Positions 31,782 through 40,193 of a stretch of 64,000 bases of DNA are shown here, in pieces (position 1 is the stretch's first letter; each line of letters opens with the position of its first letter). The stretch is from contig JAPYUM010000002.1 of assembly GCA_029940535.1 (NCBI GenBank), forward strand, positions 19,264 to 83,263, read 5' to 3'. The DNA comes from Vicinamibacterales bacterium. GTDB lineage: Bacteria > Acidobacteriota > Vicinamibacteria > Vicinamibacterales > UBA8438. Made by a program: the position numbers and the translations under genes. The notes below the pieces were generated by a model. That model made no database searches, had not been told where the DNA came from, and worked only from the letters and a program-made list of their open reading frames with translations.

Positions 31782-33863
31782 CTACCCCACCTCGACCGTC
31801 TCGTCCTTTTTCTTCCCGCCAAGCCCCTGAATCTGGATGACGCCACTCTGTTCCGGCGCCTCTTCCTTCAACACGTGCTGGCGATAGAGGGCCGCCATCC
31901 GCTCATCTTCGGCCTTCTGTTTCATCTCGTCACGCGCCGCGATCTTCTCCTGCCGCGCGGTCTTGACGATGCCCTGGTCATCCAGGTCGGTCTGTAGCCC
32001 GGCCGCCACCGCCTCCGGGTCGAGCACGAGGTTGTGCTCCTTGCTGACCAGGTCGACGTCGTTGCCACCGGCGAAGATCTCGTGCCGTCCATGCTCGTCG
32101 TACCACTTGGTGAGCGTGGCGGTCATGTGCATCTTCTCGATGATGTTCCGCCAGCCAACCCCAGTGTTGTAGGCGCAGAAGGAAATCTCTCCCTCCTGGG
32201 TCGCATACGGAATGATGCAGCGCTCGGTCCGTCGGAAGTCGTAGTTAAACAGGTCCTGGAACCACATCCCGGCAATGAACAGGAAGTTCCAGCGGTCACC
32301 CCGACGCTTCGCAATATCGGCCTGGGTCCGGTCGCCCGTCACCTTTCCGTAGTCCTTGCCGGACGCCCCGAACGTCTTGTCGAACTTCTGCACCAAGTCC
32401 CACAGCTTGAAGTGGGTCGGCGCCTGGAACGGGTCGTAGTTGCGAATCAGCGCCATCGCCATCCCAAGCGTCGCCACTTTCCGGCTACGCCCACCGTCGG
32501 TGACCCGACCCAGGTCCTTGGCCAGCCGCTCCGCCTTCAAGAACGCGGTGACCGGGACCGACTCCTTGGTCTCCTTGTCGATCATGATGGCCATCCCGAT
32601 GCCGCAGTTCGGATGGCAACCGCAATTGAGTTGCCCCCAGTCGGCCTGCGGGCCATGCATGAAGTCGGCCGAATCGGTGAAGGTGCCCATGAACGAGATG
32701 GGGAACCAGTCACGTATCGGCTCGCCGATGCCGGTCTGGTTCTTCACGTCGTGGGCCAGGTGCGACAGGGTATAGCGCTGCGCGTGCCGACGCTCGTCGG
32801 TAATCTCCTCGTCGCGGCCGGTGAACGACACCGGCTGGAACGACAGGAAGTTGATCTTCTTCGGGTTGTCGAGCGCGAACTGCACAACCCGTCCGACCTG
32901 CTCGTTGTTGATCCCGTTGAGAATCGTGATGACCGGCACGATGTCCACGCCGGCGTTGTGCAGATTCTCGATGGCCCGCAGTTTCACATCGAACAGGTTG
33001 CCGACCAGCCGGTGGGAATTCGCGGCGTTGCCGACCCCATCGAACTGCAGATACGCATACCGCAGCCCGGCATCGGCGGCGGCACGGGCGAAATCCGGAC
33101 TCTTCGCAAACTCGATGCCGTTGGTGGCCGCCTGCACGCTGTTGTAGCCGACCTTCCGCGCGTAGCGGATGGCGTCGAGGAAGTACGGGGAGATGCTCGG
33201 CTCACCGCCGGAGAACTGCACCGACATCTGCCGCCTCGGCTTGATCGAGATGGCGTTGTCGAGCAACGTCTTGATGTCGTCCCACCCGAGCTCGTGGACG
33301 AATCCGACCTGGTTCGCGTCCATGAAACAGGGGTCGCACATCATGTTGCAGCGGTTCGTCAGGTCGATCGTCAGCACCGAGCCGCGACCATACTTGATGG
33401 TGCTACTGCCATGGTTGTGCAACTTCTCGTCGTTGTGGGCCCGCATGTCGCTGCCGGGGAACGAGTCTTCGAGGTGCTTGAAGAACGCGGTGTCCATCGC
33501 CATCACGTCCTCGAAGTGGCCGTGCTCGGGACAGTCCTTCACCATCAGAATCTTGCCGTCGCGTTCAATGATGTTGGCCTTGATCTCACCGACCTTCTCG
33601 TTGATCAAGATCTTGTAGTCGCGCTTGCCGTCTAGAATCTCCTGCCGCGCCTCACGCACGCACTTGGGACACAGCGAGTCGGTCTCACGAGGCCAGCCCA
33701 GGGGCGGCTTCACTTTCTCAGTCGACTTCAGCAACGGCTTGTCTGCCCACGCGGGGACAAACGACGATTTCTGGTTATATCGGTTCACCAAATCGAAGGC
33801 CCTGAATCCCGCGTCGGCAAGCAGGGTGAGTCCTTTTTCGGCGTATTTGATCGGCTTATGCAT
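31782..33863 (-). CDS. large radical SAM protein, Tes/GDGT-MAS-like (COG1964-type)
   Basis: CxxxCxxC motif CNMMCDPC preceded by a Cys/His metal site (LCPKC...KDCPEHGHFED). The ATG at 33863 (MHKPIKY) is preceded by GGAG. About 693 aa. Confidence 0.75.
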   Translation of the reverse strand: MHKPIKYAEKGLTLLADAGFRAFDLVNRYNQKSSFVPAWADKPLLKSTEKVKPPLGWPRETDSLCPKCVREARQEILDGKRDYKILINEKVGEIKANIIERDGKILMVKDCPEHGHFEDVMAMDTAFFKHLEDSFPGSDMRAHNDEKLHNHGSSTIKYGRGSVLTIDLTNRCNMMCDPCFMDANQVGFVHELGWDDIKTLLDNAISIKPRRQMSVQFSGGEPSISPYFLDAIRYARKVGYNSVQAATNGIEFAKSPDFARAAADAGLRYAYLQFDGVGNAANSHRLVGNLFDVKLRAIENLHNAGVDIVPVITILNGINNEQVGRVVQFALDNPKKINFLSFQPVSFTGRDEEITDERRHAQRYTLSHLAHDVKNQTGIGEPIRDWFPISFMGTFTDSADFMHGPQADWGQLNCGCHPNCGIGMAIMIDKETKESVPVTAFLKAERLAKDLGRVTDGGRSRKVATLGMAMALIRNYDPFQAPTHFKLWDLVQKFDKTFGASGKDYGKVTGDRTQADIAKRRGDRWNFLFIAGMWFQDLFNYDFRRTERCIIPYATQEGEISFCAYNTGVGWRNIIEKMHMTATLTKWYDEHGRHEIFAGGNDVDLVSKEHNLVLDPEAVAAGLQTDLDDQGIVKTARQEKIAARDEMKQKAEDERMAALYRQHVLKEEAPEQSGVIQIQGLGGKKKDETVEVG

Positions 33864-33953
33864 CTTTGGCTCCGGCAGCCGGGTCAACCCACAACCCGCG
33901 CTTGCGTCCAAGTCTTTTAAGAACCATAAGATAGTCCCTAATTGAGAAAAAAA

Positions 33954-33983
33954 CCCGAAGTTTCACTTGGAGGGCGTTTCGGG
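33954..33983 (-). terminator. candidate intrinsic terminator after alkB
   Basis: The minus strand reads CCCGAA-(18-nt loop)-TTCGGG followed by TTTTTTT. The loop is large, so the call is weak. Confidence 0.35.
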
Positions 33984-34043
33984 GGGGCGAACGGGCGCAT
34001 GGGGGGGGCGTTTGGCCCGCCGTCGCCAAGAGTGCGTTGCAGG

Positions 34044-34673
34044 CTATGGCGGGCTTGCGCCTTGGCGGAACGTGAGATTCAGCCGGCCATCGAAACCCAA
34101 CTCAGGTGGTCCCGTGTGTGGCAGCACGGCCGCCACGCCATGGAAACGCAAGCGACTCGGTCCTCCGAATACGAAGCCGTCGCCGGAAGCCAGCGGCACC
34201 ATCGTCTTCGCGTCCTTGCGCGTGAGCCCCCCGATGATGAACTTCGCGGTGTCACCCAGCGACACGGACACGATCGGGACACCGGCCGCCAGGGTGTCCT
34301 GGCGTTCATCCTTGTCCTGATGGAGCCCCATCTTACCGGCGGCATCGTAGGAGTTCAGGATGCAGACATCCGGGAGCAGTCGCATACCGGCCGCCTCCGC
34401 CATTCGCACGGCCAATGCCGACAGTTGCGGCGGCAGGGGCGGCGCCGGCCGGCCGTCGTGGTCCCGTCGACTGGCCTCATAGCGATAGGTGCGCGCGTTC
34501 CAGTGGCGTCCCAGGCACACCATCCGCACCCGCATCTGTCCACCGCCGCGCACCGTGGGGACATACCATCCCGTCGGCCCGTTGCCAATTGCCTGGCAGC
34601 GCTCAGCCAGCTCGAGCTGCTCAGCCAGCGACAGAAACCGCGGCAGATGGACCGCGCCGGGGAAGATCTCCAT
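34044..34673 (-). CDS. alkB: Fe(II)/2-oxoglutarate-dependent dioxygenase AlkB
   Basis: MEIFPGAVHLPRFLS... and the HxD...H facial triad context (MGLHQDKDE ... RLRFHGV). The ATG at 34673 was chosen; the upstream part of the track ORF runs into a repeat. Confidence 0.85.
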   Translation of the reverse strand: MEIFPGAVHLPRFLSLAEQLELAERCQAIGNGPTGWYVPTVRGGGQMRVRMVCLGRHWNARTYRYEASRRDHDGRPAPPLPPQLSALAVRMAEAAGMRLLPDVCILNSYDAAGKMGLHQDKDERQDTLAAGVPIVSVSLGDTAKFIIGGLTRKDAKTMVPLASGDGFVFGGPSRLRFHGVAAVLPHTGPPELGFDGRLNLTFRQGASPP

Positions 34674-34675
34674 AC

Positions 34676-34741
34676 CGGAGTGGGGCTCTCGGGGTCCCCG
34701 CGGAGTGGCCGCGTGGGGTTCGGGGCGCAGCCCCGTCTGAA
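34676..34741 (-). repeat. Family-1 repeat (copy E, reverse, truncated)
   Basis: CGGAGTGGGGCTCTCGGGGTCCCCGCGGAGTGGCCGCGTGGGGTTCGGGGCGCAGCCCCGTCTGA. It lacks the GCGCGC...GCGCGC hairpin end and abuts the alkB start codon. Confidence 0.8.
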
Positions 34742-34799
34742 TACTAGTGTAACAATGAGGCGGGGGGCGGACTCCCGATCGTTCGAGCACTCACATTCT

Positions 34800-35948
34800 A
34801 TGCCTCGTTCTTCTGATGTCGTCGTGGTCGGCGCCGGCGTCTTCGGGGCCTGGACGGCCCTCCAGCTTCGCCGCACCGGCCGGTCGGTCACGCTCGTCGA
34901 CGCCTTCGGGGCTGGTCACACCCGGTCCAGTTCCAGTGGCGCGACCCGAGTCATTCGAGTGGGATACGGCTCCGACTTGATCTACTCGCAGTGGGCCCAG
35001 CGCTCAGCTTACGCGTGGCGCGAGTTGTTTCGCGACTGGCGGCAGGAGTTGTTCACCCGCACCGGAGTGTTGTGGATGGCCCAGGACGACGACCAGAGCA
35101 TCAACGACACGATCGAAACCCTGAACCGCCTGCACGTTCCGTTCGAGAGCCTCGAGCGGAGTGCGCTCGAGCAACGGTTTCCGCAGTTTAATTTCGGCCC
35201 GATCACTCGTGGCCTCCTCGAACCCGACGCCGGAGTCATCATGGCCCGTCGAGCGGTGCAGATGGTTGTGCGCCAGGCGGTGAAGCAGAGCGTCGATTAC
35301 CGCATCACCGCGGTCACCGTGCCGACGGGGACGGGCGCTATTGATGGTCTCTCTGCCAGTGACGGCAGCCGCCTCACCGCCGGGACCTACGTGTTCGCCT
35401 GCGGCCCCTGGCTCGCGAAGCTGTTCCCATCGGTGGTCGGCGGCCGTCTCCAATCGACTCGCCAGGAAGTGTTTTTTTTCGGCGCCGAGCCTGGTACGCA
35501 GCGATTCGTTCCGCCGCACATGCCCGCGTGGATCGACGTCGCGGGCGGCGTCTACGGCGTCCCCGACCTCGAAGGACGAGGCTTCAAGATCGGACTGCAC
35601 CACCACGGCCCTCCGTTCGACCCGGACACCGGCGAGCGCATCGTCTCCGATGGCGCGCTCCAGTTGGCGCGCATGATCCTCGCCAAACGGGTCCCCTCCC
35701 TCGCACAGGCCCCACTGCTCGAAGCCCGGGTGTGCCAATACACGAACAGCGGAACCGGTGATTTTTTGATCGACCAACATCCAGACCATGACAACGTGTG
35801 GCTCGTCGGAGCCGGGTCCGGACACGGCTTCAAACACGGCCCTGCGGTCGGCGAATACGTGGCCGCTCAGTTGTCAGGCAGAGGGTCGCCAGAACCGAGA
35901 TTCACCCTCAACGCGCATCGTCCCGGTCAAGAGCGAAGAATCTTTTAG
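34800..35948 (+). CDS. FAD-dependent oxidoreductase (DAO / sarcosine-oxidase-like family)
   Basis: Dinucleotide-binding start DVVVVGAGVFGAWTA...LVDA and DAO-family length. Alternative start at 34755. The track ORF 33942..35948 is chimeric upstream. Confidence 0.85.
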   Translation: MPRSSDVVVVGAGVFGAWTALQLRRTGRSVTLVDAFGAGHTRSSSSGATRVIRVGYGSDLIYSQWAQRSAYAWRELFRDWRQELFTRTGVLWMAQDDDQSINDTIETLNRLHVPFESLERSALEQRFPQFNFGPITRGLLEPDAGVIMARRAVQMVVRQAVKQSVDYRITAVTVPTGTGAIDGLSASDGSRLTAGTYVFACGPWLAKLFPSVVGGRLQSTRQEVFFFGAEPGTQRFVPPHMPAWIDVAGGVYGVPDLEGRGFKIGLHHHGPPFDPDTGERIVSDGALQLARMILAKRVPSLAQAPLLEARVCQYTNSGTGDFLIDQHPDHDNVWLVGAGSGHGFKHGPAVGEYVAAQLSGRGSPEPRFTLNAHRPGQERRIF

Positions 35949-35967: not shown

Positions 35968-38517
35968 CTAGCAGCAACCCGACCCAGGTTCGCAGCAGGC
36001 GTCGTTGTCAGGCCCGACCGTGATGTCGCGAATGCCGCTCGGGCCATCGACGATGGAGAACGAGCCGACGTAGGGTGCGTGTGACAGCTTGGCGGCGGTG
36101 TCGGTGCACACCTCGACCGCTTCCCCCCGTGGGAAGAGGTGCCCTTCCTCGTCGACGACTGCCTTCTGCGGACCCAGATAGATCGCGTACTGCCCGATGA
36201 ACTGACAGCCGGCCTTCTTCTCGAACTTGTAGCCTCGCACCGTCACGGAGTAGAACTTGCAGCCTTCGACCTCACGCCAGAAGGTCTTCTTCAGCACCGA
36301 CACCCCGTAGAATCCAGCCTTCTCTACCCCGGCCAGGAACGCCTCCTCGGTCAGTGCTCCCGAGATGCACTCGCCCCAGAGTTGGCCATCGGCCCGCATC
36401 TTTGGCGGCACCTCGTCCTCGGACACGATATCGGCCACGACGAGCCGCCCGTGGTCTTTCAGCACGCGCCAGATCTCACGGAAGACACGCGGCTTGTCCG
36501 GTGACAAATTGATGACGCAATTCGACGTCACCACGTCGACGGTCGTATCATCGACCGGGATCTCTTCGAGAAAGCCCTGTCTGAACTCGACCGCATCGTA
36601 GCCAAGCGCCTCGGCGACCTGGGGCTGACACTCGCGGGCGACCGACAGCATCTGGTCGGTCATGTCGACCCCGTAGATACGACCCTCGGGGCCCACTTTC
36701 TTGGCCGCGATGAAGCAGTCGATACCGGCGCCAGACCCGAGATCGACCATCGACTCTCCGGTGGCCAGTGCGGCGGCCGTGACCGGGCTGCCACACCCGT
36801 AGAACCGCTCGACAACCTCTTTGGGAATGTGCTCCAAATCGGCGGGCTCCGGCTGGACCGGACAGCAGAGCTCCTCTTGTGGTTTCTCCGCCGCGTCGCC
36901 GTAAAACTCACGCACCGTCAGACGCGACTTGTCGAGCACCTCTTCGGAGAGCACGCACGCCGAGTGCGTCGTCCGCACAATCGTGTCCTCATCATGCAGC
37001 GTGTGCTCGCCCATGCCGCGCAGCACGACGGGACGGTCGTAGCCTGCGTTCGGCTGCACGGTGGCCCGGCCCTCTCGAACCAGATCCGTGAAGGTGTCGG
37101 CGGCCAGACCTTTGTAGAGTTCGCAGTACGGATCGTGGGCGATGAACGCCGACCGCCGACTCCGGCCCTCGGCGGCCGCCGGCCAGTATCCGTGTTCGAC
37201 ATCGCCCCCCCCGCAGAGAAAACGTAACGAACAGGTCCGGCACAACGGTTTCCGCTCGACAGTCGCCTCGCGCAGGTCTCGGCAGACCGGGCTGGTCTTC
37301 CAGACCTCCTCGAGACGCTGTTCGGCCAAGTTGCCGCACCGCAACTCGGGCACCCCGGCCATCGAGGCCGATGGATACAAGTTCCCGTCCGTATACAGAC
37401 AGAGACTGCTCCAGCCAGCTCCGGCGAGGTCGTTCTTCACCCCGGGGCTGCCGTCGAGACGCAGCCGGAATTCCTCGATGTTGTCGATCGACACCCCGAG
37501 CTCGGTCGCCACCGCACGTGCCTTCCGCACGGCGGCCAGAATCTCCTCGGCGGCGGGCAGGTCAGCCAGTGCGCCGTCCAGCACGCGACCGCGACGGTGC
37601 GGCCACAACAAATGCACATTCCGGACGCCGTGGGCGTGTGCGAGTCGGACGATATCGTCCAGGGCATCGAGATTGTGACGCAGAATCGTCGCCGTCAGCG
37701 TCGGCCGCAGACCGGCGGCGACCGCAATGTCCACACCCTCCACGATGCGCTCAAACGTGCCATGACCACGAATCGGGTCGTTGATCGCGGCGGTCGGGCC
37801 GTCGAGGCTGATCTGAATCCGCAGACCGGGAACGGGCGCGTCGGCTGGGACGTCGGCGGCCGGCGTATGCGCCTCGACCACGGACAGCAACTGCACCAGT
37901 CGCGCCAGTCGCTCCCCCTTGAACATGGTCCCGTTGGTCAGAATCACCAACTCGCGGCCGTGCGTGCGCACGACACGGTCAGCCAGATCCAGAATATCCG
38001 GCCGCGCCAACGGCTCGCCACCGGTGAAGAACAGCCGTTGCGCTCCGAGCGTCACCGCTTGGTCGATGGCGTCGGCAATGACCTCGGTCGGTAGGCCTTG
38101 TTGACGCTCTGGCCCCGACGAGACCAAACAGTGCGCGCAACTCAAATTGCAGAAGTCGTTGACCTGGATCCACAGCTCGTACAGATGCTCCGTCTCCAGA
38201 TAGGCCGACCGGCCGAGGTACGGCGCCGGGGCGGCGCCGTCGGTCGACAGAAACCCCTGGCGAAGACCGTCGTGCGCGAATGTCTCGACATGCAGCCAAG
38301 CGCGAGTCACATCGAGCCCCGACGCGTTGGCGTAGTCGCGCACCACCTGCACGAAGGGGGTCCGACCATCGAACCGGCCCAGCAACCCCAACCCGCGATC
38401 GTCGGTGCCGATCCAGTGCGGTCTCGCGGGATCGAGCGCCACAGCGTCATTCCCGACGTCATGCACCGTATAGGCCGGTGCACGGAGCATGGTCTTGTCT
38501 TCAATCACGATAGGCAT
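35968..38517 (-). CDS. fusion protein: (PqqD-like N-domain?) + radical SAM/SPASM + full-length ArsM/AS3MT-type methyltransferase
   Basis: Radical SAM CNLSCAHC (aa 123-130) and a SPASM-like CRTCSLRFLCGGGD. The ArsM part spans aa ~525-849: CC (551/552), YGCG (575), VDLGSGAGID SAM motif, SNCVINL (667), WGECISGA (717), ...VEVCTDTA... and a Cys-rich tail CCEPGSGCC. Confidence 0.85.
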   Translation of the reverse strand: MPIVIEDKTMLRAPAYTVHDVGNDAVALDPARPHWIGTDDRGLGLLGRFDGRTPFVQVVRDYANASGLDVTRAWLHVETFAHDGLRQGFLSTDGAAPAPYLGRSAYLETEHLYELWIQVNDFCNLSCAHCLVSSGPERQQGLPTEVIADAIDQAVTLGAQRLFFTGGEPLARPDILDLADRVVRTHGRELVILTNGTMFKGERLARLVQLLSVVEAHTPAADVPADAPVPGLRIQISLDGPTAAINDPIRGHGTFERIVEGVDIAVAAGLRPTLTATILRHNLDALDDIVRLAHAHGVRNVHLLWPHRRGRVLDGALADLPAAEEILAAVRKARAVATELGVSIDNIEEFRLRLDGSPGVKNDLAGAGWSSLCLYTDGNLYPSASMAGVPELRCGNLAEQRLEEVWKTSPVCRDLREATVERKPLCRTCSLRFLCGGGDVEHGYWPAAAEGRSRRSAFIAHDPYCELYKGLAADTFTDLVREGRATVQPNAGYDRPVVLRGMGEHTLHDEDTIVRTTHSACVLSEEVLDKSRLTVREFYGDAAEKPQEELCCPVQPEPADLEHIPKEVVERFYGCGSPVTAAALATGESMVDLGSGAGIDCFIAAKKVGPEGRIYGVDMTDQMLSVARECQPQVAEALGYDAVEFRQGFLEEIPVDDTTVDVVTSNCVINLSPDKPRVFREIWRVLKDHGRLVVADIVSEDEVPPKMRADGQLWGECISGALTEEAFLAGVEKAGFYGVSVLKKTFWREVEGCKFYSVTVRGYKFEKKAGCQFIGQYAIYLGPQKAVVDEEGHLFPRGEAVEVCTDTAAKLSHAPYVGSFSIVDGPSGIRDITVGPDNDACCEPGSGCC

Positions 38518-38563
38518 GGGGACTGACTCGATATGACGCGGCGCCGTCCTGCGAGGATCCCGA

Positions 38564-39190
38564 CTACGTCGGCTGCGAAGCGCGGGCCGCGGCCACCGGC
38601 GCGGCCGCGGCCCGCTTGGTGTAGAAGAACCATAGTCGAAGCCCGAACAGGACCGCGAGCACGGCGGCGTAGACCAGCGGTGGGCCGATGTCGAGTTTCA
38701 CCAGCCACAGATAGTGCACGACGCCCGCCACGGCGGCCAGATACACCAGCCGATGCAACCGACGCCAACGTTGCCCACCGAGCCGGCGAATCATGCCTTT
38801 GGTCGACGTGAGCGCCAACGGCACGAGCAACACGAACCCCGTGAACCCGGCCGTGACATACCGCCGCTCGACAATGTCATCGAGAATCAGATCGAACGCG
38901 AAGAAGAAGTCCAACACCAGATAGGTGCTCAGATGGAGCACCGCGTAGAAGAACGCGAACAGCCCGACCATTCGGCGGTATGACGCGAGCGCTGACCACC
39001 CGAGCAGCTTCCGCAGCGGCGTCACGGCGAGCGCCGCGAGCAAGAACCGCAGCGTCCAGTCGCCGGTGCGATGGGTGATGTCCTCGATGGGGTTCGCGGT
39101 GAGTCCGCCAGTGAATGCCGCCCAGACCAACAGGCCCAGCGGGGTCAAGCACGCCGCAAACACCCACGGCTTGATGCGGCGCACCGTCAT
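38564..39190 (-). CDS. msrQ: protein-methionine-sulfoxide reductase heme-binding subunit MsrQ (YedZ)
   Basis: 208-aa ferric-reductase-like 6-TM protein with conserved His residues; immediately downstream of msrP. Confidence 0.9.
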   Translation of the reverse strand: MTVRRIKPWVFAACLTPLGLLVWAAFTGGLTANPIEDITHRTGDWTLRFLLAALAVTPLRKLLGWSALASYRRMVGLFAFFYAVLHLSTYLVLDFFFAFDLILDDIVERRYVTAGFTGFVLLVPLALTSTKGMIRRLGGQRWRRLHRLVYLAAVAGVVHYLWLVKLDIGPPLVYAAVLAVLFGLRLWFFYTKRAAAAPVAAARASQPT

Positions 39191-39233: not shown

Positions 39234-40193
39234 TCAGTAGTTCTCGACCAGATCCATGCCGTCGTAGAGGCTGGCCACCTGGTCGGCATAGCCGTTGAAT
39301 GGCTCGGTTCTCATTCTGAAGAAGCTGCCGATCCGACGCTCGCTCGCCTGACTCCACCGCGGATGACTCACGTCCGGGTTCACGTTCGAGTAGAACCCGT
39401 ACTCGCTCGGAATGGACACGTTCCAGGAATTTCTGGGCTGCTCCCGCACGAACTCCATCTTGACGATCGACTTGATGCTCTTGAATCCGTACTTCCAGGG
39501 CACCACCAACCGCAGCGGCGGGCCCTGCTGATTCATCAGCGTTTTGCCGTACACCCCGACGGCCAGAATGGCCAGCGGATGCATCGCCTCGTCCATTCGC
39601 AGTCCCTCGACATACGGCCATTGCAGGGACCGGCCCCGCTGGCCACGCATCTCCTCGGGACGATGCAACGTCTCGAACTTGACGTACTTCGCGTTCGACG
39701 TCGGCTCGAACCGCTTGATGAGGTCACCGAGCGGAAACCCGACCCACGGCACCACCATCGACCAGGCCTCGACACAGCGCAGTCGATAGATGCGCTCCTC
39801 CAGCGTGTGAGGACGCAGCAGGTCCTCGATCGCCACGTCGGCCGCCGGCTTGTTCATCTCGCCCTCGATCCGGACAGACCACGGGTCGATGGACATTTCG
39901 TGGGCGTATCGGGCGGGGTCTTCTTTGGCGGTGCCGAACTCATAGAAGTTGTTATAGCTCGTAATGTCCTCGTACGAGTTGGGCTCGTCGTCGGTGCTGA
40001 GCGGCGACTTCACGAGATTCGGAATCGGCTCCTGGGCCTGCGCCGTCCCGTCGTATCGTCCAAGCACAGTGCCGCCCGCGATGGCGCCGGCCACCGCGCC
40101 GGACGTGGTCTGAATAAACTGCCGGCGGTTGCGATACACCCGCTCGGGCGTAATCTCCGACGAGCGAATGTCCGGCGCTTGCTTGATCAGCAT
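39234..40193 (-). CDS. msrP: protein-methionine-sulfoxide reductase catalytic subunit MsrP (YedY), molybdopterin enzyme
   Basis: Tat signal [11 protein letters not shown] and the sulfite-oxidase-family Moco domain ([19 protein letters not shown]). Confidence 0.93.

What the first reader, a model, noticed from the sequence alone, without database searches (positions are those of the whole stretch)
35968..38517. Radical SAM/SPASM enzyme fused to a complete ArsM/AS3MT-type methyltransferase, directly downstream of msrPQ
This is a single 849-aa ORF. Residues ~10-95 resemble a PqqD-like peptide/substrate-binding domain (…VHDVGNDAVALDP…GRFDGRTPFVQVVRDY…). Residues 123-130 carry the radical SAM CxxxCxxC motif (CNLSCAHC), and residues ~425-470 carry a SPASM-type auxiliary-cluster motif (CRTCSLRFLCGGGD…C). 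Residues ~525-849 are a full ArsM. All four cysteines known to be essential in ArsM/AS3MT are present in the expected spacing: CC 551/552, YGCG 575, SNCVINL 667 and WGECISGA 717. The SAM motif VDLGSGAGID, the ArsM C-terminal domain (…VEVCTDTA…F.I.DG) and a Cys-rich tail CCEPGSGCC are also there. Known organoarsenical pathways pair a separate radical SAM enzyme with ArsM (ArsS/ArsM for arsenosugars, ArsL/ArsM for arsinothricin). I do not recognise a described SPASM-type fusion of this architecture. It is spaced 46 nt from msrQ and 43 nt further from msrP on the same strand, so co-transcription with a periplasmic molybdoenzyme system is possible. No short precursor-peptide ORF is visible next to it.
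Basis: partly seen in the sequence, partly recalled or inferred. Interest (0 to 1): 0.75.

Follow-up and report, generated by a model that had tools for sequence, protein, structure and literature searches.

The report
Radical SAM–arsenic methyltransferase fusion enzyme
This gene joins an arsenic-methylating enzyme to a radical enzyme of a type not previously tied to arsenic, and relatives in about ten bacterial phyla sit in operons that NCBI's protein-family library labels arsenosugar biosynthesis, so it probably makes organic arsenic compounds by an undescribed route.

Summary
Window 35968-38517 (minus strand) is one 849-aa ORF with four parts:
- a PqqD/RRE-like N-domain;
- a radical SAM core (C123/C127/C130);
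- a SPASM domain;
- a complete ArsM/AS3MT with all four catalytic cysteines and a Cys-rich tail.

The fusion is not an artefact. The identical protein lies on 9 contigs. Full-length orthologues occur in about 70 of 80 species genomes sampled, from Vicinamibacterales to Nitrospirota, Planctomycetota, Gemmatimonadota and Elusimicrobia.

Genomic context gives the function. Orthologues repeatedly neighbour the two NCBIfam "arsenosugar biosynthesis glycosyltransferases" (TIGR04283, TIGR04282), which are otherwise the partners of ArsS. An unfused homologue of the radical SAM half sits between those two genes. A reverse-order ArsM–rSAM/SPASM fusion takes ArsS's place in an otherwise near-identical operon. 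The radical SAM half is not homologous to ArsS beyond the cluster motif.

Best reading: a bifunctional organoarsenical synthase, in which ArsM makes DMAs(III) and a SPASM-type radical SAM domain replaces ArsS for the last C–As bond.

The msrPQ adjacency is a lineage-specific insertion. This window itself holds none of the accessory genes. I found no published description. I rate it a new variant of a known kind.

The parts
35968..38517 (-). Whole 849-aa fusion gene: RRE-like domain, radical SAM, SPASM, ArsM, Cys-rich tail
   Evidence: ORF listing and translation. Domain hits. AlphaFold model with pLDDT 88 and pTM 0.85.
38233..38517 (-). Residues 1-95: PqqD/RRE-like winged-helix N-domain
   Evidence: The model shows strands 10-38 followed by three helices. 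Foldseek aligns 501 columns to CteB 5wgg and also matches SuiB, both RRE-containing maturases. 14 of 16 orthologues hit Pfam PqqD.
37483..38187 (-). Residues about 111-345: radical SAM core with CX3CX2C (C123, C127, C130)
   Evidence: Pfam Radical_SAM 81 bits. The three Cys are invariant in 50 and in 70 relatives.
37108..37455 (-). Residues about 355-470: SPASM auxiliary-cluster domain (C373, C394, C426, C429, C435, D439, C465)
   Evidence: Pfam SPASM 28.1 bits, above the 21.5 cut-off. These residues are conserved across the 47-100% identity clade. Position 439 is Cys in the unfused and reverse-order relatives.
36946..36972 (-). Residues 516-524: conserved 'T-H-S-x-C-V-L-S' motif (C521) that ends the radical SAM module
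   Evidence: C521 is invariant in alignments A1 and A2. The unfused homologue ends with the same motif, FHCACVLT. Its role as an As(III) ligand is inferred, not shown.
36034..36930 (-). Residues about 530-828: complete ArsM/AS3MT (N-terminal Cys pair 551/552, C575, SAM motif, C667, C717, C-terminal domain)
   Evidence: PDB phmmer E 4e-40 to ArsM structures with the cysteines aligned. Foldseek E about 1e-21 to 6cx6, 5evj, 4fr0 and 8xt7. NCBIfam arsenite methyltransferase PRK11873 238.5 bits against a cut-off of 263.
35971..36033 (-). Residues 829-849: disordered Cys-rich tail ...CCEPGSGCC, which always ends in CC
   Evidence: pLDDT below 50. A terminal C(C)x4-6CC is conserved in 66 of the 68 relatives of the 820-860 aa clade (two Brocadiales proteins end CCG).
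38564..39190 (-). msrQ, 46 nt upstream on the same strand; a neighbour specific to this lineage
   Evidence: NCBIfam MsrQ 175 bits against a cut-off of 130. The adjacency is seen only in part of Vicinamibacterales.
39234..40193 (-). msrP, upstream of msrQ, with a promoter-like site at 40281-40252
   Evidence: NCBIfam MsrP 455 bits against a cut-off of 207. Promoter scan.

Best explanation
The protein is a bifunctional organoarsenical synthase that works in the ArsS/ArsM-type ('arsenosugar') pathway.

**Proposed steps (all inferred).**
1. The C-terminal ArsM domain binds As(III) on its conserved cysteines (C575, C667, C717, with the C551/552 pair for the redox step). It methylates As(III) with SAM to dimethylarsenite.
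2. The radical SAM/SPASM half reductively cleaves a further SAM at the C123/C127/C130 cluster. It then forms the third C-As bond. The most likely chemistry is addition of the 5'-deoxyadenosyl radical to the trivalent arsenical, as ArsS does.
3. Fusion would let the oxygen-sensitive, toxic DMAs(III) pass directly between the two sites. Candidate hand-off ligands are the invariant C521 motif and the terminal ...CC tail. ArsL offers an analogy, with its C-terminal Cys motif that binds As(III).
4. The auxiliary clusters may take up the electron from the arsenic-centred radical.

**Shown.** The architecture, the conservation of the catalytic residues, the distribution across phyla and the operon association.

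**Inferred.** The substrate, the adenosylation chemistry, channelling and the end product.
For: 1. The ArsM half is complete, with all four catalytic Cys aligned to solved ArsM/AS3MT structures. These Cys are conserved in about 70 orthologues from about 10 phyla.
2. The radical SAM Cys triad is invariant.
3. The neighbouring GT2 passes the NCBIfam cut-off of 182 for TIGR04283 'arsenosugar biosynthesis glycosyltransferase' in L071 (227), L087 (242), L055 (227.5), L016 (223), L025 (210) and L030 (259). The neighbouring DUF2064 passes the cut-off of 134 for TIGR04282 in L062 (212) and L069 (210).
4. An unfused homologue (33% identity over window residues 26-524, E 1e-76) lies between TIGR04283 (239) and TIGR04282 (177) in L092.
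5. A canonical ArsS operon, L094, reads YdjY-VTT-flippase-like-C_GCAxxG_C_C-x-TIGR04283-TIGR04282-ArsS, with TIGR04167 at 409 bits against a cut-off of 300. L096 has the same order, but a reverse-order ArsM-rSAM/SPASM fusion replaces TIGR04282 and ArsS.
6. No other radical SAM gene lies within 8 kb in the operon-type loci that carry TIGR04283 or TIGR04282 (L085, which has no accessory genes, holds one unrelated radical SAM ORF).
7. Other recurrent neighbours fit arsenate handling: a PHO4/PiT transporter, a PstS-like protein and an ArsC-like LMW phosphatase.
8. ArsS adenosylates DMAs(III), and ArsL binds As(III) through a C-terminal Cys motif (PMC13598754).
Against: - No biochemistry exists for any member of the family.
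- The names of TIGR04282 and TIGR04283 themselves rest on association with ArsS.
- This window contains none of the accessory genes (tblastn found nothing), so the function in this genome is inferred by orthology at 52-56% identity.
- The radical SAM half looks structurally like a peptide maturase with an RRE. The arsenical model does not explain that.
- The ArsC-like and DUF2064 hits in some loci fall below the curated cut-offs.
- The ArsM half scores just under the PRK11873 cut-off, 238.5 against 263.
- PiT-family transporters can also carry sulfate.
Confidence: 0.55

Rival explanations
1. It is a plain arsenite-detoxifying methyltransferase. The radical SAM/SPASM half serves only as a helper, for example by supplying electrons to re-reduce the ArsM disulfide, or by adding a further methyl group.
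For: The ArsM half is complete by itself. In this window the gene has no pathway partners. The DUF5714 tri-fusion relatives are stand-alone genes.
Against: The SAM-cleaving CX3CX2C triad is invariant, which a mere electron relay would not need. The radical SAM half also exists unfused inside the TIGR04283/TIGR04282 operon. No arsR, acr3 or arsB resistance genes accompany the gene in any locus examined.
Confidence: 0.13
2. It is a RiPP-type or protein-modifying maturase. The RRE-like domain recruits a peptide, the radical SAM/SPASM domain cross-links or otherwise modifies it, and the methyltransferase domain methylates it. Arsenic is not the substrate.
For: The best structural matches of the N-half are the peptide maturases SkfB, CteB, SuiB, anSME and ChlB. 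A PqqD-like N-domain is present. The nearest NCBIfam families are ScmF, the mycofactocin maturase MftC and StsB. The partner GT2 resembles MftF.
Against: No conserved small ORF lies within 4 kb of the gene across divergent loci. All family scores are far below their cut-offs. The methyltransferase keeps the As(III)-binding cysteines across about 10 phyla, which a peptide methyltransferase has no reason to do. In L096 a reverse-order fusion of the same two modules takes the place of ArsS in an otherwise ArsS-type operon.
Confidence: 0.08
3. The pathway logic is the same, but the element is a different soft metalloid or chalcogen (Se, Te or Sb). The enzyme would then make a methylated, alkylated selenium or antimony compound.
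For: The partner genes were first described as 'rSAM/selenodomain-associated transferases', a name JGI still uses. ArsS and several ArsM-like families include selenoproteins (NCBIfam names). The PiT-family neighbour also matches a sulfate permease weakly.
Against: The three- and four-Cys site is the one seen with As(III) bound in ArsM crystal structures (6cx6). ArsC-like and PstS-like neighbours point to arsenate. Selenocysteine in those families is a catalytic residue, not evidence of a selenium substrate.
Confidence: 0.1
4. The fusion is an assembly or frameshift artefact of two adjacent genes.
For: None found.
Against: The identical 849-aa product is on 9 contigs from separate assemblies. 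Full-length fusions occur in about 70 species genomes, including closed chromosomes. The model is confident through most of the junction region and falls below pLDDT 50 only at the five linker residues 524-528 (pTM 0.85).
Confidence: 0.01

Closest known systems
ArsS + ArsM (arsenosugar pathway; ArsS = NCBIfam TIGR04167, radical SAM with a DUF3641 Cys/Sec-rich domain)
   Same: It pairs an ArsM with a radical SAM enzyme. It has the same operon partners: TIGR04283 and TIGR04282, and in the unfused and reverse-order relatives also VTT/DedA, a flippase-like protein, C_GCAxxG_C_C and YdjY. The expected chemistry is 5'-deoxyadenosylation of DMAs(III) (PMC13598754).
   Different: The radical SAM module is not an ArsS homologue. 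Similarity is limited to 26% identity over 87 residues around the cluster motif. The module has an RRE-like N-domain and a SPASM domain instead of DUF3641. It is covalently fused to ArsM.
ArsL + ArsM (arsinothricin biosynthesis)
   Same: A radical SAM enzyme forms a C-As bond on trivalent arsenic and works with an ArsM. ArsL binds As(III) with a C-terminal Cys motif, RCCLKC. Here the conserved H-S-x-C-V-L motif and the ...CC tail are candidate equivalents. The ArsM half scores 207 bits on the arsinothricin ArsM model, with its C-terminal domain covered.
   Different: ArsL is a non-canonical enzyme that generates the 3-amino-3-carboxypropyl radical. No sequence relationship to ArsL was seen among the listed NCBIfam matches. 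The 207-bit score is far below that model's cut-off of 500. The operon partners are those of ArsS, not of arsinothricin.
RRE-containing radical SAM/SPASM peptide maturases (CteB, SuiB, SkfB, MftC, PqqE)
   Same: The three-module architecture matches: RRE-like domain, radical SAM core and SPASM domain. Foldseek E-values are 1e-16 to 1e-10. This clade has an Asp at the fourth position of CX2CX5CX3C. From memory, PqqE has an Asp-ligated auxiliary cluster; I did not check this here.
   Different: All family-specific NCBIfam scores are far below their cut-offs, for example MftC 114 against 265. No precursor peptide gene was found. The module is fused to an arsenic methyltransferase.
Stand-alone ArsM/AS3MT arsenite methyltransferases
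   Same: The C-half has the fold, the SAM motif, the four cysteines, the C-terminal domain and the Cys-rich tail.
   Different: It carries a 525-residue radical SAM module at its N-terminus. It is not in an ars resistance operon.

Membership tests
ArsM/AS3MT arsenite methyltransferase | Class I SAM-binding Rossmann fold with the ArsM-type motif | tested here: met
   Methyltransf_31 113 bits. Foldseek E about 1e-21 to ArsM structures, TM-score on the target 0.6-0.68.
ArsM/AS3MT arsenite methyltransferase | Four conserved cysteines (CmArsM C44, C72, C174, C224) | tested here: met
   C575, C667 and C717 align to C72, C174 and C224. CC551/552 aligns to the N-terminal Cys of CrArsM. The cysteines are conserved in the 47-100% identity clade.
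ArsM/AS3MT arsenite methyltransferase | ArsM C-terminal domain | tested here: met
   The alignment to 5evj and 4kw7 runs to residue about 823. The NCBIfam ArsM model is covered over positions 167-355 of 356.
ArsM/AS3MT arsenite methyltransferase | Score above the curated family cut-off | tested here: not met
   PRK11873 scores 238.5 bits against a cut-off of 263. The arsinothricin ArsM model scores 207 against 500 and the arsenosugar ArsM model 154 against 400. It is a near miss for the generic model, so this is a divergent ArsM sub-family.
ArsM/AS3MT arsenite methyltransferase | As(III) methylation activity | not testable with these tools
   Needs an enzyme assay.
Radical SAM superfamily | CX3CX2C cluster motif in a partial TIM barrel | tested here: met
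   C123, C127 and C130 are invariant. Pfam Radical_SAM 81 bits. The fold matches anSME, CteB and BlsE.
SPASM subfamily | Seven-Cys motif CX9-15GX4C ... CX2CX5CX3C ... C that ligates two auxiliary clusters | tested here: inconclusive
   Pfam SPASM scores 28.1 against a cut-off of 21.5. Six Cys are present: C373, C394, C426, C429, C435 and C465. The fourth position of CX2CX5CX3C is D439 in this clade, and Cys in the unfused and reverse-order relatives. The first spacing is 20 residues, longer than canonical. Cluster content needs spectroscopy.
RRE / PqqD-like domain | Winged helix-turn-helix (three strands plus three helices) that binds a leader peptide | tested here: inconclusive
   The fold is supported by the model's secondary structure, by the 501-column Foldseek alignment to CteB, and by 14 of 16 orthologues hitting Pfam PqqD. 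The window's own copy gives no Pfam hit. No peptide partner was found.
ArsS (TIGR04167) | Homology to the ArsS radical SAM core plus the DUF3641 Cys/Sec-rich C-domain | tested here: not met
   BLASTP against a bona fide ArsS (L094, 409 bits on TIGR04167) gives only 26% identity over 87 residues, E 4e-5. There is no DUF3641 hit.
ArsS-type organoarsenical operon (functional membership) | Co-location with the TIGR04283 and TIGR04282 transferases | tested here: met
   Met for orthologues and for the unfused and reverse-order homologues. Not met in this window itself.
Mycofactocin maturase MftC / other named SPASM maturases | Score above the curated equivalog cut-off and a cognate precursor gene | tested here: not met
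   MftC scores 114 against 265, ScmF 115 against 400 and StsB 102 against 625. No conserved small ORF was found.

The most novel reading that the evidence does not exclude
A second, evolutionarily independent class of C-As bond-forming radical SAM enzyme, built on a RiPP-maturase-like RRE/SPASM scaffold, has replaced ArsS. It has fused to ArsM at least twice, in both gene orders. In the boldest form of this reading, the RRE-like domain and SPASM clusters handle the enzyme's own arsenic-loaded Cys-rich tail as a tethered 'peptide substrate'. Under this reading, uncultured Acidobacteriota, Nitrospirota, Planctomycetota and others make adenosyl- or ribosyl-arsenicals. These products may be attached to the envelope through a polyprenyl-phosphate carrier, as the GT2, flippase-like, GT-C and DedA partners would suggest.
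Probability: 0.3. Interest if true: 0.85.

Novelty: new variant of a known kind. Interest (0 to 1): 0.68.

Why it matters
Only two radical SAM enzymes are known to make carbon-arsenic bonds, ArsS and ArsL. Arsenosugar synthesis has been tied mainly to cyanobacteria and algae.

If this reading is right, a third, unrelated radical SAM scaffold does this chemistry. It is hard-wired to ArsM and spread through abundant but uncultured soil, groundwater and marine phyla. Metagenomic surveys that count 'arsM' as a marker of arsenic methylation and volatilisation would then be miscounting genes that make non-volatile organoarsenicals.

The fusion also offers a single polypeptide in which to study As(III) hand-off between a methyltransferase and a radical site. 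The shared operon partners give a concrete route to the unknown later steps of arsenosugar or arsenolipid synthesis: TIGR04283, TIGR04282, the flippase-like protein, GT-C and DedA.

Tried and rejected
- **msrPQ as a functional partner: rejected.** The adjacency is confined to a Vicinamibacterales sub-clade (12 of 41 acidobacterial loci and 0 of 26 others). In sister lineages the same position holds a GT-C glycosyltransferase.
- **Tes-like radical SAM two to three genes downstream as a partner: rejected.** It is syntenic only within Acidobacteria, alongside housekeeping genes (moaA, hisS, aspS).
- **Linked precursor peptide: none found.** All ORFs of 20-90 aa within 4 kb of about 70 fusions were clustered, and none recurs across divergent loci. 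The small ORFs in L092 and L008 are unrelated to each other.
- **Accessory genes in this window: none.** Both blastp labelling and tblastn found nothing.
- **Second ArsS-type radical SAM gene near the fusions: none.** The extra radical SAM ORFs found were MoaA- and Tes-like genes in Acidobacteria, one in L051, and one of 461 aa in L085.
- **Literature: nothing.** Seven full-text searches on radical SAM + ArsM + fusion/SPASM/Acidobacteria/DUF5714/arsenosugar returned no paper on this protein.
- The tool rejected the truncated sequences. I scanned the N-domain alignment against Pfam instead.
- **Model coordinates were not accessible.** Distances between the ArsM site, C521, the tail and the radical SAM cluster could not be measured.
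Full report
**1. The observation**

The ORF lies on the minus strand at 35968..38517. It starts with ATG and encodes 849 aa.

Pfam finds Radical_SAM (118-292, 81 bits), SPASM (367-429, 28.1 bits against a cut-off of 21.5) and Methyltransf_31 (587-723, 113 bits).

For the C-half, NCBIfam gives arsenite methyltransferase PRK11873 at 238.5 bits (cut-off 263). The arsinothricin-type ArsM model scores 207 bits and is covered to its last residues. For the N-half, only sub-threshold hits to SPASM maturases appear: ScmF 115 bits, MftC 114 bits, StsB 102 bits.

msrQ (38564-39190) and msrP (39234-40193) lie upstream on the same strand, 46 and 43 nt apart. Both exceed their equivalog cut-offs.

**2. Is the ArsM half a real ArsM?**

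phmmer against PDB sequences aligns residues 529-823 to Chlamydomonas ArsM 5evj (E 4e-40), human AS3MT 8xt7 and Cyanidioschyzon ArsM 4kw7/4fr0. Counting along the printed alignment, C575 falls on CmArsM C72, C667 on C174 and C717 on C224. The CC551/552 pair aligns with the N-terminal cysteine of CrArsM.

An AlphaFold2 model built on a 31-sequence alignment is confident, with mean pLDDT 88 and pTM 0.85. Only residues 221-226, 524-528 and 829-849 are poorly predicted. Its 13 best Foldseek matches in PDB are ArsM/AS3MT structures, at E about 1e-21. The refutation condition 'generic class I methyltransferase without aligned ArsM cysteines' is therefore not met.

**3. The radical SAM half**

After the ArsM entries, the best structural matches are SkfB 6efn, CteB 5wgg (501 aligned columns, so the N-terminal domain is included), SuiB 5v1s, anSME 4k37 (TM-score on the target 0.77), ChlB 9gmc, BlsE and PqqE.

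The model shows four short strands and three helices in residues 10-86. 14 of 16 orthologous N-domains hit Pfam PqqD, with a best E of 3.9e-5, although the window's own copy does not. The N-half therefore has the RRE + radical SAM + SPASM layout of peptide maturases.

Within the clade that contains the window protein, the SPASM ligands C373, C394, C426, C429, C435 and C465 are conserved. The fourth position of CX2CX5CX3C is Asp439. It is Cys in the unfused and reverse-order relatives.

A further cysteine, C521, sits in the motif T-H-S-x-C-V-L-S and is invariant. It belongs to the radical SAM module, because the unfused homologue ends with FHCACVLT.

**4. Is the fusion real, and how widespread is it?**

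The identical protein is encoded on 9 contigs from several assemblies. More than 120 clusters of full-length proteins share 69-99% identity, and NCBI names them only 'methyltransferase domain-containing protein [Acidobacteriota]'.

A search of 1.84 billion representative proteins finds the same architecture down to about 30% identity. Three variants appear:
- A tri-fusion with an extra C-terminal DUF5714 domain. It has lost the SPASM cysteines and the CC551/552 pair.
- A reverse-order ArsM-rSAM/SPASM fusion of about 705-711 aa.
- Unfused radical SAM/SPASM proteins.

A scan of one genome per GTDB species with the N-half found more than 582 relatives. The best 80 are Vicinamibacterales and other Acidobacteriota at 56-95% identity. 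At 37-47% identity come Nitrospirota, Planctomycetota/Brocadiales, Gemmatimonadota, Lindowbacteria, Hydrogenedentota, Elusimicrobia, Latescibacterota and Omnitrophota. All are MAGs. About 70 of the 80 loci encode a full 820-860 aa fusion with the ArsM motifs.

In that clade the following are essentially invariant:
- the radical SAM triad;
- the SPASM ligands;
- C521;
- CC551/552;
- C575, C667 and C717;
- a C-terminus ending ...C(C)x4-6CC.

**5. Genomic context**

I called ORFs in all loci, clustered the neighbours by all-against-all BLASTP and annotated the recurrent clusters.

Lineage-restricted neighbours are msrPQ (12 acidobacterial loci), a Tes-like radical SAM (18 loci in the full clustering; 14 among the 41 acidobacterial loci counted), DUF2461, SET and UPF0227. 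They lie beside housekeeping genes such as moaA, hisS and aspS, so I read them as inherited synteny rather than functional linkage.

The neighbours that recur across phyla are different:
- a small GT2;
- DUF2064;
- DUF547;
- DUF3047;
- a VTT/DedA-family membrane protein;
- a MerA-like FAD disulfide oxidoreductase (NF004991, 807 bits);
- a PHO4/PiT transporter;
- a GT-C (MptB/GT87-like) glycosyltransferase.

One locus also has an ArsC-like LMW phosphatase and another a PstS-like protein.

Examples of gene order:
- L061: DUF3047-DUF547-fusion-VTT-oxidoreductase-PHO4.
- L071: DUF2064-VTT-oxidoreductase-ArsC-like-GT2-DUF547-fusion.
- L088: PHO4-fusion-x-x-DUF3047-VTT-oxidoreductase.

The GT2 passes the curated cut-off (182) of TIGR04283 'arsenosugar biosynthesis glycosyltransferase' in L071, L087, L055, L016, L025 and L030, at 210-259 bits. 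The DUF2064 passes that of TIGR04282 (134) in L062 and L069, at 210-212 bits. JGI names the same GT2 family 'rSAM/selenodomain-associated transferase', which refers to its association with ArsS.

**6. Three comparisons that tie the radical SAM half to the role of ArsS**

(a) L092 reads C_GCAxxG_C_C - TIGR04283 (239 bits) - unfused rSAM/SPASM homologue - TIGR04282 (177 bits), with overlapping genes. The homologue shares 33% identity with window residues 26-524, at E 1e-76.

(b) L094 is a canonical operon from an Actinomycetota MAG. It reads YdjY - VTT - flippase-like - C_GCAxxG_C_C - 146 aa - TIGR04283 (256) - TIGR04282 (183) - ArsS (TIGR04167, 409 bits against a cut-off of 300).

(c) L096 reads YdjY - VTT - flippase-like - C_GCAxxG_C_C - 159 aa - TIGR04283 (269.5) - reverse-order ArsM-rSAM/SPASM fusion.

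Operons (b) and (c) are collinear except that the fusion replaces TIGR04282 and ArsS. The window protein and ArsS share only 26% identity over 87 residues around the cluster motif. In the operon-type loci that carry TIGR04283 or TIGR04282, no other radical SAM gene lies within 8 kb.

I read this as non-orthologous displacement of ArsS by a SPASM-type radical SAM enzyme. Fusion to ArsM in both orders is Rosetta-stone evidence that the two halves work together.

**7. The window's own lineage**

In Vicinamibacterales the ancestral order appears to be TIGR04283 GT2 - GT-C - fusion - DUF547 (L029-L032, L036). In a sub-clade the order is TIGR04283 GT2 - msrP - msrQ - fusion (L016, L017, L019, L025, L026, L052).

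In the window and its closest relatives (L012, L013) the GT2 is gone. Only 84 nt separate UPF0227 from msrP. tblastn with all accessory proteins finds nothing anywhere in the 64 kb.

No terminator-like site lies in the 46-nt msrQ-fusion gap, and a promoter-like site lies upstream of msrP. Co-transcription with msrPQ is therefore plausible here, but it is a local accident of gene order.

**8. Mechanism (inferred)**

ArsS adds the 5'-deoxyadenosyl radical to DMAs(III) in a redox-neutral reaction. ArsL uses a C-terminal three-Cys motif to hold As(III) (review PMC13598754).

By analogy, the ArsM domain would make DMAs(III) on C667/C717. The radical SAM domain would then alkylate it, most likely by adenosylation. 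I favour adenosylation because the downstream transferases are those of the ArsS pathway.

C521 and the disordered terminal Cys cluster are candidates for passing the arsenical between the two sites. Fusion would shield DMAs(III) from oxygen in these largely aerobic lineages. The function of the RRE-like domain is unexplained. One possibility is that it binds the enzyme's own Cys-rich tail.

**9. Rivals**

- Detoxifying methylation with a helper domain is weakened by the invariant SAM-cleaving triad and by the unfused homologue inside the transferase operon.
- A RiPP maturase is weakened by the absence of any conserved small ORF and by the conserved As(III) site.
- Another metalloid cannot be excluded.
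- An artefact is excluded.

**10. Novelty**

NCBIfam release 20 has no model that names this protein. Seven full-text searches found no description. The kind of system, a radical SAM enzyme paired with ArsM for organoarsenical synthesis, is known. The radical SAM scaffold, the fusion and the taxa are new.

I rate it a new variant of a known kind, with interest 0.68. The main caveats are that nothing is shown biochemically and that this particular genome segment lacks the partner genes.

Noticed in passing
window 31782-33911 (-): A 709-aa protein with the HMPTM zinc ribbon and a Radical_SAM domain. Its best NCBIfam hit is tetraether lipid synthase Tes, 310 bits against a cut-off of 450. It stays two to three genes from the fusion in 18 acidobacterial loci and in no other phylum. 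It may be a homologue of membrane-spanning lipid synthases.
   Followed up: partly
window 33942-35948 (+) and 34044-34790 (-): The mechanical 668-aa ORF is over-extended. The DAO/sarcosine-oxidase-like domain covers residues 292-642, and relatives are called at 382 aa. The gene converges on the fusion, with 19 nt between the two stop codons. An AlkB-like 2OG-Fe(II) oxygenase gene lies on the other strand inside the over-extended part.
   Followed up: partly
relatives P0130, P0139, P0142, P0152, P0188; locus L008 10001-13192: A tri-fusion variant, rSAM-ArsM-DUF5714, of 950-1080 aa. It has lost the SPASM cysteines and the CC551/552 pair but keeps C521, C575, C667 and C717. Its DUF5714 part matches NCBIfam 'metal-binding double selenoprotein MbdU' at 124 bits. 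In L008 it is a stand-alone gene with no pathway partners.
   Followed up: partly
L094 5816-11261, L096 4035-10136, L030 5195-10535, L095 5039-9678: ArsS-type and fusion-type operons share several genes: a YdjY-domain protein, a VTT/DedA protein (weak hit to the undecaprenyl-phosphate transporter UptA), a flippase-like LPG_synthase_TM protein, a C_GCAxxG_C_C protein and a GT-C MptB-like glycosyltransferase. In L030 there is also a second GT2 that resembles polyprenyl-phosphate hexose synthases. Together these resemble a lipid-carrier glycosylation cycle.
   Followed up: no
L040, L043, L045, L048, L061, L063, L071, L076, L088 (next to the fusion): A MerA-like FAD-dependent disulfide oxidoreductase (NF004991, 807 bits) lies directly beside the fusion in 11 of the 67 loci counted, often paired with the VTT/DedA gene. 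Its role is unknown. It might reduce the ArsM disulfide.
   Followed up: no
L050, L065, L074, L083, L085, L089 (upstream of the fusion, opposite strand): A protein of about 245 aa that looks like a Crp/Fnr-type regulator, judged by eye and not scanned, is divergently transcribed from the fusion in several loci, most of them Nitrospirota.
   Followed up: no
window 38500-38563: No obvious Shine-Dalgarno sequence precedes the annotated ATG. A second in-frame ATG is at codon 10. Orthologue alignments begin at residues 1-6, so the first ATG is probably correct.
   Followed up: partly
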